Assembly (NCBI GenBank): GCA_964482725.1
Contig: CAYZYT010000005.1
Span: 24,133-88,132 of the forward strand
Direction: 5' to 3'
DNA from: an uncultured bacterium
GTDB lineage: Bacteria; Omnitrophota; Omnitrophia; Omnitrophales; Aquincolibacteriaceae
Length of the DNA: 64,000 nt
Shown here: in pieces, positions 5,804 to 8,966 of the stretch
Numbering within the stretch: position 1 is the first letter of the stretch
Layout of the letters: every line of letters begins with the position of its first letter
Program-made: the position numbers and the translations under genes
Notes under the pieces: model-generated
Database searches by the model: none
Seen by the model: only the letters and a program-made list of their open reading frames with translations
What the model was told of the DNA's origin: nothing

Positions 5804-6580
5804 TTATTCTCGAACTAGAAAATCAGGAAACAGAGCTTTAAGATTTTGGCGAAGATCAGAGGAAATGCCTGCCATGGGGATGGCCTTCTCACGAAGTTCT
5901 TTATCAAAACAATGGTCGGGGTGGAACATTTGAAGAGCATAGCGTTTGCACCCCTTCTCTGCAAGTCCTCGGGCCATAGCCAGGACATCATCCTCCGAGA
6001 GAACCGCAGGATGGAACGTGGTGCGGAATTCGTAAGCCACGCCGCTTGCAAGGACCAACTCCACGCTTTGCCGAGCCTTATCACCACTCTCCGGAATCAG
6101 AGTCACCTTTTCGTAGAGATGAAACGGAGCTTTGATATCGAGGCCGACCCAGTTGCAAAACGGGAGAACTTGCTCGAGGCGCTCGGGAACCATACCTCCG
6201 GTGTGAAGACCGACCTCGAAACCCCTATCTTTGACCGCTTTTACCCAAGCTGGAAGATGATCATGAATCGTGGGTTCCCCACCCGAGAACACGATCCCGT
6301 CGAGGTGCCCCTTACGGGAATCCAGGAAATGCAGTATTTTTTCAAGCGGAATGGACTGTCCGGCAGGTAGGGGCCAAAACTCAGCGTTATAACAATAGCG
6401 ACATCGCCACGAACACCCCTGAAGATAAAAAACCCCGGCCAAGCGGCCGGGGAAATCTATCGTCGTAAAGGGCGTAATGCCCGCGACGCAAATGTCGCTT
6501 AGATCACTTGCAGCCACACCCGGCTTCTTTGGGTTCGGCGAAATATTTCCGCTCATAAAATTCGCCTTTTTTTCCAACAT
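5804..6580 (-). CDS. nrdG: anaerobic ribonucleoside-triphosphate reductase activating protein (radical SAM)
   Basis: CSWRCRYC (CxxxCxxC) followed by GGEPT, lying downstream of nrdD. The true start may be the GTG at 6517, which overlaps the stop of the small glycyl-radical ORF. Confidence 0.78.
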   Translation of the reverse strand: MLEKKANFMSGNISPNPKKPGVAASDLSDICVAGITPFTTIDFPGRLAGVFYLQGCSWRCRYCYNAEFWPLPAGQSIPLEKILHFLDSRKGHLDGIVFSGGEPTIHDHLPAWVKAVKDRGFEVGLHTGGMVPERLEQVLPFCNWVGLDIKAPFHLYEKVTLIPESGDKARQSVELVLASGVAYEFRTTFHPAVLSEDDVLAMARGLAEKGCKRYALQMFHPDHCFDKELREKAIPMAGISSDLRQNLKALFPDFLVRE

Positions 6581-6677
6581 TGAACCCGGCGACCGGGCGA
6601 TGGTACCCCATCACGCGCGTCCAAACTTCGCAGCGCGTCCGCTCTTCATCTTTTAAAACAATAGAGTCTTTTGTCAT
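6504..6677 (-). CDS. small ORF encoding a class III RNR glycyl-radical domain (RVxGY ... NxGKxxE..R)
   Basis: Own translation: MTKDSIVLKDEERTRCEVWTRVMGYHRPVAGFNVGKKGEFYERKYFAEPKEAGCGCK. It contains the RV(C/M)GY glycyl-radical signature and the NxGKKxE block that normally form the C-terminus of NrdD. A GGGGGA Shine-Dalgarno sits 4-5 nt upstream. Absent from the ORF track coordinates but open on the minus strand. Confidence 0.55.
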   Translation of the reverse strand: MTKDSIVLKDEERTRCEVWTRVMGYHRPVAGFNVGKKGEFYERKYFAEPKEAGCGCK

Positions 6678-6769
6678 TTGTTCCCCCGTTAGAGATAGGA
6701 GGCGCTTCTTTCAAAGCACTTCCGTTCATTTCAAAATCTTGACCCCAAAAACCTAAAATTTTCGTTCGT

Positions 6770-6810
6770 TTATGATTCAAAAACTAACCCCGCGCATCTC
6801 TAACGGGGCA
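6770..6810 (-). terminator. putative intrinsic terminator directly after the nrdD stop
   Basis: On the minus-strand RNA: CCCCG-uuagagaugcg-CGGGG followed by UUAGUUUUUG. Confidence 0.35.
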
Positions 6811-6814
6811 AGAT

Positions 6815-8878
6815 TTAAAGCTTCGCTTCGATCGTCGCCGTTGATTCGACTTCCTGAGCGTCGTGGTGGTGAACCGTTTTTTGATTGATAAGCTCTTGAT
6901 CGCATTTGGTACAAAATTCATGTTCGCCTGCAAGATAACCATGCGTCGGACAGATCGAGAAGGTCGGCGTGATGGTAATATAAGGGATCCGATAACCTTC
7001 CAGCGCCCGCTTGACGAGATTCTTGCAGGATTCCGCGCTCGACATGCGCTCGCCCATATAAAGATGCAGCACGGTCCCTCCGGTGTAGCGACGCTGTAAC
7101 TCCTCCTGGCGGCCCAGAGCCTCGAACGGATCATCCGTGAATCCCGCGGGAAGCTGGGAAGAATTCGTGTAATACGGACGCTCCACCGTGCCGGCATGAA
7201 GAATGTCTGGAAAACGCTTGATATCTTCTTTTGCAAACCGATAAGTCGCACCTTCCGCAGGTGTGGCCTCGAGATTATAAAGATGTCCGGTCTCCTCCTG
7301 GAACGCAACGATGCGCGCGCGGATATGATCCAGCATCTTAAGAGCAAACTCAAAACCCGCCTGGGTCGTGATGTTCTCGCTTCCACCCGTAAAGTTACGA
7401 ATGCATTCATTGATCCCATTAACACCGATCGTTGAGAAGTGATTGCGCAGGGTCCCGAGGTAACGCTTGGTATACGGGAAAAGCCCGGCATCCATGTGGC
7501 GTTGAATGATCTTACGCTTGAGCTCCAAGCTCGTCTTCGCGATCTGAAGGAGCGTGTCGATCCGGTTGAAGAACGCGCCCTCATCCCCTTTGGAGAGATA
7601 ACCGATCCGGGCACAGTTCAGGGTCACGACTCCGAGAGAACCGGTCTGCTCGGCAGACCCGAAAAGCCCATTCCCGCGCTTTAGAAGTTCACGCAGATCG
7701 AGTTGAAGGCGGCAGCACATGGAGCGGACATGGTTTGGCTTGAGGTCCGAATTAAGGAAGTTTTGGAAATACGGCAACCCATACTTGGCGGTCATTTCAA
7801 AAAGAGGGACGCAATTCGGATGGTTCCAGTCAAAATCCGGCGTAATGTTGTAAGTCGGGATCGGGAACGTAAAAACACGTCCCTTGGCATCACCACGCAT
7901 CATGACTTCGATATAGGCCTTGTTGATCATCGCCATTTCTTCTGAAAGGTCCCCATAGACGAAATCCACCTCTTTGCCGCCAATGATCGGATGCTCGTTA
8001 CGGAGGTCGTCAGGACAAACCCAGTCGAACGTTACGTTCGTGAAAGGCGTTTGCGTTCCCCATCGGGAGGGAACGTTCAAGTTATAAATGAACTCCTGAA
8101 TGCTCTGTTTGACGTCTTCGTAAGGAAGCTTGTCGATCCGGATAAAAGGTGCGAGGTAGGTATCGAACGAAGAGAACGCCTGAGCCCCCGCCCATTCGTT
8201 CTGAAGCGTGCCAAGGAAATTCACCATCTGCCCGACTGCGGAGCTCAGATGCTTCGGGGGCGCGGATTCCACCTTGTCCGGAACGCCGTTAAACCCTTCG
8301 CGGATCAAGGTCTTGAGGGACCAACCGGCACAATAGCCAGAAAGCATATCCAGGTCATGAATGTGCACATCACCATGACGATGCGCGTTCGCAACTTCCT
8401 CAGGGTACACATGAGAGAGCCAGTAATTTGCAAGCACCTTGCCGGAGATATTGAGGATCATACCGCCCAAAGAATACCCTTGATTGGCGTTCGCGTTCAC
8501 GCGCCAGTCCAGTTTATAAAGGTATTCATTGACCGAAGAGGTTACATCGACCACGGTCTTTTGATCCCGGCGCAATTTCTTGTGCTGTTCACGGTAGACG
8601 ATGTAAGCGCGGGCGGTCTTGAGATGGTTGGACGAGATCAGGACCTGCTCCACAATATCCTGGATCTTTTCGATATCGAGAAAGCCGGGAGAGTACCGGT
8701 TATCAATAACTTTTATAACTTCTAAGGTTAAGATCTGAGCTTCCGCACCGTCATATTCCCCCGTCGCCTGCCCCGCTTTGACGATCGCGTTGTAGATCTT
8801 GGTTCCGTCAAAAGGAACGATGGAACCGTCGCGCTTGCGGATGCTGGTGATCTTCTTGGAAAGGAACTGATGTGCCAT
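6815..8878 (-). CDS. nrdD: anaerobic (class III) ribonucleoside-triphosphate reductase catalytic subunit, lacking the C-terminal glycyl-radical motif
   Basis: 687 aa with an N-terminal ATP-cone (ITSIRKRDGSIVPFDGTKI), a large class III RNR core and a C-terminal Zn-ribbon-like CPTHGY...CTKCD. There is no RVCGY motif before the stop. Confidence 0.85.
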   Translation of the reverse strand: MAHQFLSKKITSIRKRDGSIVPFDGTKIYNAIVKAGQATGEYDGAEAQILTLEVIKVIDNRYSPGFLDIEKIQDIVEQVLISSNHLKTARAYIVYREQHKKLRRDQKTVVDVTSSVNEYLYKLDWRVNANANQGYSLGGMILNISGKVLANYWLSHVYPEEVANAHRHGDVHIHDLDMLSGYCAGWSLKTLIREGFNGVPDKVESAPPKHLSSAVGQMVNFLGTLQNEWAGAQAFSSFDTYLAPFIRIDKLPYEDVKQSIQEFIYNLNVPSRWGTQTPFTNVTFDWVCPDDLRNEHPIIGGKEVDFVYGDLSEEMAMINKAYIEVMMRGDAKGRVFTFPIPTYNITPDFDWNHPNCVPLFEMTAKYGLPYFQNFLNSDLKPNHVRSMCCRLQLDLRELLKRGNGLFGSAEQTGSLGVVTLNCARIGYLSKGDEGAFFNRIDTLLQIAKTSLELKRKIIQRHMDAGLFPYTKRYLGTLRNHFSTIGVNGINECIRNFTGGSENITTQAGFEFALKMLDHIRARIVAFQEETGHLYNLEATPAEGATYRFAKEDIKRFPDILHAGTVERPYYTNSSQLPAGFTDDPFEALGRQEELQRRYTGGTVLHLYMGERMSSAESCKNLVKRALEGYRIPYITITPTFSICPTHGYLAGEHEFCTKCDQELINQKTVHHHDAQEVESTATIEAKL

Positions 8879-8917: not shown

Positions 8918-8966
8918 AGACAACATATTGTAGTTTTTTTTTAGGCAGCCACCACATCTAGTGCGG
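8918..8966 (-). promoter_or_regulatory. candidate tandem NrdR boxes upstream of nrdD
   Basis: Two imperfect palindromes, ACAACATATTGTAG and CCACATCTAGTG, with centres 32 bp apart, 40-90 bp upstream of the nrdD start. They resemble the 16-bp acaCwAtATaTwGtgt NrdR operator, which typically occurs as tandem boxes about 3 helical turns apart. Confidence 0.35.

What the first reader, a model, noticed from the sequence alone, without database searches (positions are those of the whole stretch)
6504..6817. Class III RNR appears split: nrdD ends after its Zn-ribbon, and the glycyl-radical domain is a separate 57-codon ORF behind a terminator-like hairpin
The 687-aa NrdD has the ATP-cone, core and CPTHGY..CTKCD ribbon but no RVxGY motif. 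About 137 nt downstream, in another frame, a small ORF encodes TRVMGYHRPVAGFNVGKKGEFYERKYF. This is the canonical glycyl-radical signature and NxGKK block that normally end NrdD. The small ORF has its own GGGGGA ribosome-binding site, and its stop overlaps a GTG that would start nrdG. It is either a genuine two-piece NrdD with a stand-alone glycyl-radical subunit, analogous in idea to spare-part radical domains of pyruvate formate-lyase, or a disrupted gene. Nothing in the sequence flags a simple frameshift: the original stop is followed by a second in-frame stop.
Basis: seen in the sequence. Interest (0 to 1): 0.65.

Follow-up and report, generated by a model that had tools for sequence, protein, structure and literature searches.

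The report
Two-piece anaerobic ribonucleotide reductase, radical on mini-subunit
The oxygen-sensitive enzyme that makes DNA building blocks is here encoded as a large catalytic protein plus a separate 57-residue protein carrying the radical glycine, and this split is conserved in hundreds of bacterial species, is copied on its own by some phages, and was not described in any paper I could search.

Summary
On the minus strand, nrdD (6815..8878, 687 aa) ends after its zinc ribbon and has no RVxGY motif. A 57-codon ORF (6504..6677) encodes the missing glycyl-radical loop. nrdG follows.

- All 84 related loci examined have the same three-gene layout. All three relative reading frames occur, the spacer runs from -13 to 287 nt, 72 of 84 have a ribosome-binding site, and synonymous changes far outnumber amino-acid changes.
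- All 120 closest NrdD homologues also lack the radical domain.
- More distant relatives are fused, with the same sequence across the junction. The break therefore lies in a variable linker.

Two details need correcting. The 137-nt spacer with its "terminator-like hairpin" is a lineage-specific insertion of a multicopy palindromic repeat. The GTG overlapping the small ORF's stop is out of frame for nrdG.

Temperate phages carry the small gene alone, next to lysis and integrase genes.

No paper found describes a split NrdD. Reviews from 2021 and 2026 say that spare-part radical proteins are known only for pyruvate formate-lyase.

Verdict: a new variant of a known enzyme, of real interest to specialists.

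The parts
6815..8878 (-). nrdD large subunit (687 aa): ATP-cone, catalytic barrel, zinc ribbon and a 27-residue tail. It has no glycyl-radical loop.
   Evidence: Pfam NRDD E 1e-175 over profile positions 2-529 of 562, plus ATP-cone. NF006126 scores 1131 bits against a cut-off of 548. No R[VI]xGY motif.
8576..8845 (-). ATP-cone (residues 12-101), the allosteric activity site.
   Evidence: Pfam PF03477, E 1.5e-22.
7712..7717 (-). Cys388-Cys389 within SMCCRL. I take this to be the finger-loop cysteines that would receive the radical.
   Evidence: Invariant in the alignment of 10 concatenated sequences. It resembles the SCCR finger-loop motif of T. maritima NrdD (PMC4493059). The functional role is inferred.
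6902..6952 (-). Zinc-ribbon motif CPTHGYLAGEHEFCTKC (residues 643-659).
   Evidence: The pattern CxxHx6HxxCxxC is present in 61 of 77 related large subunits. T. maritima NrdD binds zinc with CxxxHx6CxxC (PMC4493059).
6818..6898 (-). C-terminal tail of the large subunit (DQELINQKTVHHHDAQEVESTATIEAKL). It replaces the short linker seen in fused relatives.
   Evidence: The tail is 8-35 residues long in the 120 close homologues. Fused relatives read CPxCG, then 2-20 residues, then CEVW.
6678..6814 (-). 137-nt spacer between nrdD and the small ORF.
   Evidence: Sister Omnitrophota have 10-21 nt here.
6684..6808 (.). 125-nt palindromic repeat element with 13-nt perfect terminal inverted repeats (CCCCGTTAGAGAT at 6796..6808 and at 6684..6696). 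It was inserted between the nrdD stop and the small ORF's ribosome-binding site.
   Evidence: The fold is -49.9 kcal/mol with z = -3.3. The arms were located. At least 120 metagenome contigs carry the same pair of arms 85-115 nt apart. The element is absent from L009, L010 and L011. There is no Rfam match.
6778..6808 (-). Local hairpin CCCCG(N11)CGGGG followed by TTAGTTTTTG.
   Evidence: Read from the sequence. The terminator scan did not call it because the loop is longer than 8 nt. It competes with the long-range stem found.
6682..6687 (-). GGGGGA ribosome-binding site of the small ORF, partly inside the right arm of the repeat.
   Evidence: Sister genomes have AGGAGG at the same place.
6504..6677 (-). 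Small subunit (57 aa): the stand-alone glycyl-radical loop of NrdD.
   Evidence: Pfam NRDD profile positions 532-562 of 562, E 2e-7. More than 5000 homologues were found, and the best 120 are all 52-100 aa. 22 columns are invariant in 20 diverse sequences. dN/dS is roughly 0 to 0.08.
6603..6617 (-). RVMGY motif. Gly24 (6606..6608) is the predicted radical site.
   Evidence: Invariant. It aligns with the end of the NRDD profile. The radical role is inferred from T4 Gly580 and E. coli Gly681, which is established knowledge.
6630..6632 (-). Cys16 of the small subunit (CEVW). It is invariant, and its function is unknown.
   Evidence: Present in 81 of 81 genome loci as CE[VI]. It is also kept in fused relatives, 2-20 residues after CxxC.
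5804..6556 (-). nrdG activase (radical SAM). The start is uncertain: ATG 6556 is likeliest, and 6580, 6577 and 6517 are also in frame.
   Evidence: TIGR02495 NrdG2 scores 181 bits against a cut-off of 131. The gene caller on L007 chose the equivalent of 6556.

Best explanation
This is a functional class III (anaerobic) ribonucleotide reductase built from two polypeptides encoded in one operon, nrdD-(small ORF)-nrdG.

- The 687-aa large subunit provides the ATP-cone, the catalytic barrel with its finger-loop cysteines, and a complete zinc ribbon.
- The 57-aa small subunit provides the loop that carries the radical glycine (Gly24 in RVMGY).
- The gene is divided in the variable linker that, in fused relatives, joins the zinc ribbon to the radical loop.

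Inferred mechanism:
1. NrdG abstracts a hydrogen atom from Gly24 of the small protein.
2. The loop inserts into the barrel of the large subunit.
3. The glycyl radical generates the thiyl radical on the finger loop, as in single-chain NrdD.

Because oxygen cleaves the chain at the radical glycine, the split means that only a 6.5-kDa peptide is lost and has to be replaced, rather than an 80-kDa enzyme. Phages that carry the small gene alone fit a subunit that acts in trans and can be exchanged.

Shown: two separate, conserved and selected genes; the domain content of each; conserved synteny with nrdG.
Inferred: physical assembly, activation in trans, and the repair-economy rationale.

In this genome a palindromic repeat was inserted between the two genes. 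Its long stem may tie translation of the small ORF to termination of nrdD (speculative).
For: 1. The domain content is complementary. The large chain covers NRDD profile positions 2-529 and the small chain covers 532-562 of 562.
2. 84 of 84 loci with both motifs are split. Frame offsets are 0, 1 and 2 in 16, 25 and 43 loci. Spacers run from -13 to 287 nt. TGA, TAA and TAG stops all occur. 72 of 84 have a Shine-Dalgarno-like motif, and 81 of 84 have a CX3CX2C radical-SAM gene downstream.
3. Gene callers on Turicimonas muris, Chitinilyticum aquatile and a second Omnitrophota genome give nrdD (665-687 aa), a small ORF (57-61 aa) and a radical-SAM gene.
4. Purifying selection: against L008 there are 9 synonymous and 0 non-synonymous differences, and against L009 there are 11 and 0. 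The median pN/pS over 3081 pairs is 0.19.
5. All 120 best NrdD homologues (about 74-100% identical, including Rhodospirillum rubrum, Sulfurimicrobium lacus and Endoriftia) have the ribbon but no radical motif.
6. 149 of the best 150 cluster representatives at 50% identity are 53-117 aa. 433 clusters reach E<=1e-10.
7. Fused relatives (Halorhodospira, Riflebacteria, Microbacterium, Streptomyces) are 54-71% identical across the junction and show a linker of 2-20 residues.
8. In IMG/VR contigs the small gene stands alone next to endolysin, spanin and integrase genes. Only 2 of 47 non-redundant loci have NrdD among the two called genes on either side.
Against: - There is no direct evidence here for expression, assembly or activity.
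- The AlphaFold model of the concatenated chains was not confident for the radical loop (pLDDT below 50 for residues 709-744, mean 72). Docking is therefore not supported by a model.
- The small protein alone gives no hit to solved NrdD chains by sequence. The domain assignment rests on the Pfam and NCBIfam profiles and on the fused relatives.
- The 80 genome loci were chosen as the best matches to a split-type query, so they cannot give the ratio of split to fused forms across the whole family.
- Only 64 kb of this genome is visible, so a second, single-chain NrdD elsewhere cannot be excluded.
- The local hairpin with a T-run after nrdD could reduce transcription of the small ORF and nrdG in this lineage.
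Confidence: 0.85

Rival explanations
1. The gene is disrupted, or the split is a sequencing or assembly error: a frameshift or nonsense mutation cut off the end of a normal nrdD.
For: A single MAG-derived window cannot by itself exclude an indel. The exact small-ORF sequence was on record from only one short contig.
Against: The same split occurs in 84 of 84 independent assemblies, with all three frame offsets and different spacers. The small ORF has its own ATG and ribosome-binding site. Synonymous differences number 9-11 against 0 non-synonymous in close relatives. In the window a stop lies in the small ORF's frame inside the spacer, and two in-frame stops end nrdD.
Confidence: 0.01
2. One polypeptide is still made, by programmed frameshifting, ribosomal bypassing, an intron or a split intein that joins the two pieces.
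For: T4 nrdD contains a group I intron, and inteins occur in this family: P0210 (1012 aa) carries PF14528. The window spacer is strongly structured, with z = -3.3.
Against: The spacer is not conserved. It ranges from -13 to 287 nt and is 10-21 nt in sister genomes. The structured part is a multicopy repeat found in many unrelated contexts. There is no Rfam intron match. All frame offsets occur, and 72 of 84 loci have a ribosome-binding site plus ATG. The 27-residue tail and 15-residue head are far too short for split-intein halves.
Confidence: 0.02
3. The small protein is only an optional spare part or a regulator, and the working enzyme is a different, single-chain NrdD elsewhere in the genome.
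For: Only 64 kb of the genome is visible. Phages carry the small gene without nrdD, which shows it can be useful apart from its neighbour.
Against: The adjacent large subunit has no radical loop at all, yet it is highly conserved: 74-100% identity across phyla with an intact ATP-cone, finger loop and ribbon. It always sits with the small ORF and nrdG. A large subunit without a partner would not be maintained.
Confidence: 0.05
4. The large subunit has become independent of a glycyl radical, for instance by taking the radical directly from NrdG or from another cofactor, and the small ORF is a conserved remnant with another role.
For: None directly. T. maritima NrdD shows unusual finger-loop geometry, so class III mechanisms do vary (PMC4493059).
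Against: RVMGYHRP and FNxGK are invariant in the small protein, exactly as in fused enzymes. A remnant would not keep the radical motif under such selection.
Confidence: 0.02

Closest known systems
Single-chain class III RNR NrdD with activase NrdG (phage T4, E. coli, Thermotoga maritima, Prevotella copri)
   Same: It has the same catalytic core, ATP-cone, zinc ribbon placed just before the radical loop, RVxGY radical motif, NxGK block and adjacent radical-SAM activase. Fused members of the same NCBIfam family (NF006126) read straight through the junction.
   Different: The radical loop is on a separate 49-97-aa polypeptide with its own start codon. The large chain ends in an extra 8-35-residue tail, and the small chain has an extra N-terminal segment (LxDEERxxC).
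GrcA/YfiD of E. coli and Y06I of phage T4 (autonomous glycyl radical cofactors for pyruvate formate-lyase)
   Same: It is a small stand-alone protein carrying a glycyl-radical loop that would work in trans with a large barrel enzyme, and a phage-borne version exists. This is the same idea of replacing only the oxygen-damaged part (PMC8683613, PMC13450708).
   Different: The small protein is homologous to the NrdD C-terminus, not to the PFL radical domain; it gives no Pfam Gly_radical hit. The partner has no radical loop of its own, so the small protein is obligate and not a rescue device. It is encoded inside the operon, between the enzyme and its activase.
Split class II RNR NrdJa/NrdJb of Pseudomonas aeruginosa
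   Same: An RNR catalytic chain is encoded as two adjacent genes, with the C-terminal zinc or cysteine module affected (PMC4520616, PMC9669993).
   Different: That enzyme belongs to a different class, is B12-dependent and has no glycyl radical. [quoted passage not shown]
Class I RNR (NrdA/NrdB)
   Same: The stable radical is stored on a separate, smaller subunit that must dock on the catalytic subunit.
   Different: NrdB is an unrelated metalloprotein with a tyrosyl or metal radical and long-range radical transfer. Here the radical loop itself would enter the barrel.

Membership tests
Class III ribonucleotide reductase (NrdD/NrdG) | NrdD catalytic core above the curated family threshold | tested here: met
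   NF006126 scores 1131 bits against a cut-off of 548, TIGR02487 scores 479 against 326, and Pfam NRDD has E 1e-175.
Class III ribonucleotide reductase (NrdD/NrdG) | Glycyl-radical motif (RVxGY) at the C-terminus of the same polypeptide | tested here: not met
   The 687-aa chain has no R[VI]xGY motif. The motif is on the separate 57-aa ORF. This is the variant feature.
Class III ribonucleotide reductase (NrdD/NrdG) | Zinc ribbon immediately before the radical loop | tested here: met
   CPTHGYLAGEHEFCTKC. The pattern CxxHx6HxxCxxC occurs in 61 of 77 relatives. Metal binding itself was not tested.
Class III ribonucleotide reductase (NrdD/NrdG) | Dedicated radical-SAM activase encoded alongside | tested here: met
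   TIGR02495 NrdG2 scores 181 bits against a cut-off of 131. A CX3CX2C gene lies downstream in 81 of 84 loci.
Class III ribonucleotide reductase (NrdD/NrdG) | Oxygen-sensitive glycyl radical and NTP reduction | not testable with these tools
   This needs EPR and enzyme assays.
GrcA/YfiD autonomous glycyl radical cofactors | Small stand-alone protein consisting essentially of a glycyl-radical loop | tested here: met
   It is 57 aa. The best 120 homologues are 52-100 aa.
GrcA/YfiD autonomous glycyl radical cofactors | Homology to the PFL-type radical domain (Pfam Gly_radical) | tested here: not met
   Pfam NRDD is the only match at E<=0.01. The NCBIfam hits are all NrdD families.
GrcA/YfiD autonomous glycyl radical cofactors | The partner enzyme has its own radical domain, and the small protein replaces it after oxygen cleavage | tested here: not met
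   The partner lacks the domain entirely, here and in 120 of 120 close homologues.
Intron- or intein-interrupted nrdD (as in phage T4) | Conserved self-splicing intervening sequence between the two coding parts | tested here: not met
   There is no Rfam match in 6300..7100 overlapping the spacer. The spacer is 10-21 nt in sister genomes and -13 to 287 nt overall.
MITE/REPIN-like palindromic repeat (for the spacer insert) | Terminal inverted repeats and many copies in different contexts | tested here: met
   The arms are 13-nt perfect inverted repeats. At least 120 metagenome contigs carry the pair, 83 copies of 111-137 nt were extracted, and some contigs hold two or tandem copies.
MITE/REPIN-like palindromic repeat (for the spacer insert) | Target-site duplication or an associated transposase (RAYT) | tested here: inconclusive
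   The flanks often extend the palindrome (TTTA..TAAA, TTGA..TCAA), but no clear duplication was seen. No transposase was searched for.

The most novel reading that the evidence does not exclude
The small protein may be a free, exchangeable radical cofactor. In this reading NrdG activates it off the enzyme, it docks into an otherwise complete large subunit, it is discarded after oxygen cleavage and it is replaced by a fresh copy. That would be a built-in spare-part system for class III RNR. Temperate phages of Sutterellaceae and other bacteria carry the small gene alone. This suggests they supply extra copies to keep host dNTP synthesis running under fluctuating oxygen, the class III counterpart of T4 Y06I.
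Probability: 0.4. Interest if true: 0.85.

Novelty: new variant of a known kind. Interest (0 to 1): 0.72.

Why it matters
Glycyl radical enzymes pose a long-standing mechanistic problem. The radical glycine is buried in the barrel, yet the activase has to reach it, and oxygen destroys the whole enzyme by cutting the chain at that glycine.

A natural class III RNR whose radical loop is a separate peptide of about 60 residues gives a ready-made system for studying three steps apart from each other: activation, docking and radical hand-over. It also allows a direct test of whether replacing a cheap subunit is a repair strategy.

Reviews from 2021 and 2026 state that spare-part proteins are known only for pyruvate formate-lyase, and that it is open whether other glycyl radical enzymes have them (PMC8683613, PMC13450708). 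A 2015 paper called the class II NrdJa/b the only split RNR in a free-living organism (PMC4520616).

The split form occurs in cultured, tractable bacteria (Rhodospirillum rubrum, Castellaniella, Janthinobacterium, Vogesella, Turicimonas muris), so experiments are feasible.

There is a practical consequence too. The small gene may be missed or named generically by annotation, so these organisms can look as if they had a defective nrdD.

Tried and rejected
- **Small ORF against solved structures.** A sequence search of the single protein and a profile search of 20 homologues found no NrdD hit. The motif is too short, so the assignment rests on Pfam, NCBIfam and the fused relatives.
- **AlphaFold2 on the concatenated large and small chains.** The alignment was block-wise: 20 large, 18 small and 13 fused fragments. 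The radical loop and the finger loop came out below pLDDT 50, so nothing can be said about docking.
- **P0201 (748 aa) as a possible natural fusion.** It is a large subunit with an internal duplication and no radical loop.
- **P0369 (988 aa, 10 matched stretches).** These are repeats containing 'GRCEVWTR' and no other resemblance to the radical loop, so I take it as a chance hit on a short motif.
- **C-terminal cysteine pair (GCGCK) as a general redox shuttle.** It is present in only 11 of 81 small subunits and 7 of 77 large-subunit tails. It is lineage-specific and not part of the core design.
- **Integron attC site as an explanation of the spacer repeat.** Rejected by eye: the GTT...AAC arms are in the opposite order to attC boxes.
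- **NrdR-box consensus search.** Allowing 3 mismatches it found nothing, although two palindromes that look like NrdR boxes are visible by eye upstream of nrdD.
- **GenBank phages.** tblastn with a phage-type small protein found no match.
- **Literature.** Eight searches and eleven papers gave no description of a split NrdD.


Full report
**What is in the window**

The genes are on the minus strand. nrdD runs from 8878 to 6815 and encodes 687 aa. It matches the Pfam ATP-cone (residues 12-101) and Pfam NRDD over profile positions 2-529 of 562. It also matches NCBIfam NF006126 with 1131 bits against a cut-off of 548. The protein contains the zinc-ribbon sequence CPTHGYLAGEHEFCTKC, then a 27-residue tail and a TAA stop. 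It has no R[VI]xGY motif, and a second in-frame stop follows five codons later.

After a gap of exactly 137 nt, in another frame, a 57-codon ORF (6677..6504) encodes MTKDSIVLKDEERTRCEVWTRVMGYHRPVAGFNVGKKGEFYERKYFAEPKEAGCGCK. This matches positions 532-562 of 562 of the same Pfam profile, which is the part missing from the large protein (E 2e-7, above the Pfam cut-off).

nrdG follows (TIGR02495, 181 bits against a cut-off of 131).

Two details are not. The GTG that overlaps the small ORF's TGA is out of frame for nrdG. The in-frame candidates are ATG 6580, TTG 6577, ATG 6556 and GTG 6517. The "terminator-like hairpin" is discussed in the section on the spacer.

**Is the split real?**

The 57-aa protein has more than 5000 homologues. 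The best 120 are all stand-alone proteins of 52-100 aa. They come from Omnitrophota and from cultured Proteobacteria such as Turicimonas muris, Chitinilyticum aquatile, Aquabacterium and Janthinobacterium.

The 120 best homologues of the large protein are about 74-100% identical. They include Rhodospirillum rubrum, Sulfurimicrobium lacus and Endoriftia persephone. All of them end 8-35 residues after the zinc ribbon and none has the radical motif.

Gene calls on three unrelated contigs give the same order: nrdD, small ORF, radical-SAM gene.

I scanned one genome per species with the small-protein alignment. In the 80 best loci plus those fetched earlier, I located the end of the large gene and the small ORF in 84 loci.
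- All 84 are split.
- The small ORF is in frame offset 0, 1 or 2 relative to nrdD in 16, 25 and 43 loci.
- The spacer ranges from -13 to 287 nt, with a median of about 31.
- The nrdD stop is TGA, TAA or TAG.
- 72 of 84 have a Shine-Dalgarno-like motif before the ATG.
- 81 of 84 have a CX3CX2C gene downstream.

A sequencing error, a recent pseudogene or a conserved recoding signal cannot produce this pattern.

The small ORF is under strong purifying selection. Over 37 ungapped codons, the window differs from L008 by 9 synonymous and 0 non-synonymous changes, and from L009 by 11 and 0. The median pN/pS over 3081 pairs is 0.19, with synonymous sites near saturation.

In the library of 50%-identity cluster representatives, 433 clusters match at E<=1e-10. 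Of the best 150, 149 are 53-117 aa long.

**Where the gene is divided**

I searched with a chimeric query: the end of the large protein joined to the core of the small one. It found C-terminal fragments of fused relatives from Halorhodospira, Riflebacteria, Microbacterium, Streptomyces and Propionibacteriaceae. These are 54-71% identical across the junction.

They read ...TPTFSICPxHGYLxGEHxxCPxC(G/D), then 2 to 20 residues, then CEVWTRVMGYHRPVxSFNIGKKGE... The break is therefore in a linker of variable length between the zinc ribbon and the radical loop.

The ribbon is complete in the large subunit. The pattern CxxHx6HxxCxxC occurs in 61 of 77 relatives. T. maritima NrdD binds zinc with CxxxHx6CxxC (PMC4493059).

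Split forms have two extra pieces. One is a tail on the large chain, typically D-x-E-L-I-A-x-K. The other is an acidic N-terminal segment on the small chain, L-x-D-E-E-R. These may hold the two chains together, but that is an inference.

Cys16 of the small chain (CEVW) is invariant in split and fused forms. Its role is unknown.

**How it most likely works**

By homology with single-chain NrdD, three steps are expected.
1. NrdG makes a radical on Gly24 of the small protein.
2. The loop enters the barrel of the large subunit.
3. The radical passes to the finger-loop cysteines, which I take to be SMCCRL, residues 386-391.

This is established knowledge for T4 and E. coli NrdD, and it is inferred here.

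In single-chain glycyl radical enzymes the radical domain must leave the barrel to meet the activase, and oxygen cuts the chain at the glycine. With the loop on its own peptide, activation needs no such movement, and oxygen damage costs only a 6.5-kDa protein.

I tried to model the assembly with AlphaFold2 on the concatenated chains. The radical loop and the finger loop came out below pLDDT 50, so the model neither supports nor contradicts docking.

**Phages carry the small gene alone**

The same alignment found 283 stretches in IMG/VR contigs. The best 80 are all small stand-alone ORFs, and only 5 have an nrdD end within 1.2 kb upstream.

In 47 non-redundant loci I scanned the two called genes on either side. 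They include endolysin (11), integrase (10), spanins, head-tail adaptor, tail tube and capsid proteins. NrdD appears in only 2 loci.

In L110 the order is holin, lysozyme, spanin-like ORF, DUF1643, small radical protein, integrase.

The exact proteins are on record as Parasutterella WP_157645833.1 (57 aa, seen on 752 contigs) and as proteins of uncultured Caudoviricetes and Siphoviridae. They fall in PHROG 4132, annotated 'unknown function'. No deposited GenBank phage matched.

Sutterellaceae hosts (Sutterella, Turicimonas) have the split operon. I did not check Parasutterella itself.

This parallels phage T4 Y06I, the phage copy of the PFL spare part. It argues that the small subunit works in trans and may be limiting.

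**The spacer in this window**

The 137-nt gap folds into a long stem (-49.9 kcal/mol, z = -3.3). The stem is formed by 13-nt perfect inverted repeats, CCCCGTTAGAGAT at 6796..6808 and at 6684..6696.

The sister Omnitrophota L009, L010 and L011 lack this stretch. They read TAA-AGGAGG-N5-ATG.

At least 120 metagenome contigs carry the same pair of arms 85-115 nt apart. I extracted 83 copies of 111-137 nt. Their interiors are variable, and some contigs hold two or tandem copies. There is no Rfam match.

The insert is therefore one copy of a multicopy palindromic repeat of the MITE or REPIN kind. It landed between the nrdD stop and the small ORF's ribosome-binding site, and it now supplies the GGGGGA.

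The left arm starts 7 nt after the nrdD stop, and the right arm overlaps the ribosome-binding site. A ribosome terminating on nrdD could therefore open the stem and free the site. This is speculation.

**Comparison with what is known**

I found no paper that describes a split NrdD.
- Crona et al. [quoted passage not shown]
- Andorfer et al. 2021 state that only YfiD and Y06I have been validated as spare parts (PMC8683613).

Databases do hold both pieces. NCBI names the small one 'anaerobic ribonucleoside-triphosphate reductase'. The sequences are therefore public but, as far as I could find, not interpreted.

The literature search covers open-access papers only, so a description in a subscription journal cannot be excluded.

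**Verdict**

This is a genuine, widespread, two-subunit class III RNR with the radical loop in trans: a new variant of a known enzyme. It is not a member of the GrcA family, although it may work in a similar way.

Noticed in passing
L088-L167 (IMG/VR contigs), e.g. L110 3474-3647, L094 3489-3674: Temperate-phage contigs carry the NrdD-type glycyl-radical mini-protein on its own, usually between the lysis genes and the integrase, with no nrdD nearby. The records include Parasutterella WP_157645833.1 and uncultured Caudoviricetes. The proteins fall in PHROG 4132, annotated 'unknown function'.
   Followed up: partly
L094 1234-3488 (also L088): In one phage group the stand-alone radical mini-protein lies directly downstream of two radical-SAM/SPASM genes of the peptide-maturase type. 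They are not NrdG-like, and all NCBIfam hits are far below the cut-offs. The reason for the association is unexplained.
   Followed up: partly
window 6684..6808; L168-L247: There is a family of 111-137-nt palindromic repeats with 13-nt perfect terminal inverted repeats (CCCCGTTAGAGAT) and variable interiors. It is present in at least 120 metagenome contigs, many from Hainich groundwater, and some contigs hold two or tandem copies. It matches no Rfam family. Only one copy lies in this 64-kb window.
   Followed up: partly
window 8919..8964 (minus strand, upstream of nrdD): Two imperfect palindromes, GCACTAGATGTGGTGG and ACTACAATATGTTGTC, lie about 30 nt apart centre to centre, just upstream of the nrdD ribosome-binding site. 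By eye they resemble tandem NrdR boxes. A consensus search allowing 3 mismatches did not pick them up.
   Followed up: no
window 6504..6521 (small ORF C-terminus GCGCK); large-subunit tails in L003, L039, L063, L085: Cysteine pairs occur at the very C-terminus of the small subunit in Omnitrophota and Sutterellaceae, and on the large-subunit tail in some Proteobacteria (..QCCD, ..CCGA). They recall the redox-shuttle tails of class I and II RNRs. They are present in only 11 of 81 small subunits and 7 of 77 large-subunit tails.
   Followed up: partly
window 6504..6677 versus public records: The identical large subunit is on record from an NCBI contig of 161 kb. The exact small-ORF sequence was found only on one 4-kb Logan contig. 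The small gene may not have been called in the deposited genome, so annotation may sometimes miss it.
   Followed up: no
window 6433..6452 (minus strand, inside nrdG): A strong terminator-like site (CCCCGGCCGCTTGGCCGGGG followed by TTTTTT) lies inside the 5' part of the nrdG coding region. Weak sRNA-family matches, all below their gathering scores, overlap it. It is probably just the GC-rich hairpin.
   Followed up: no
P0241 (Halorhodospira abdelmalekii, partial): This fused relative has a 20-residue linker (DDQLRAAGHSEPLPEEKRTRCEVW) that resembles the split tail plus the head of the small subunit. It could be a re-fusion or an intermediate on the way to the split.
   Followed up: no
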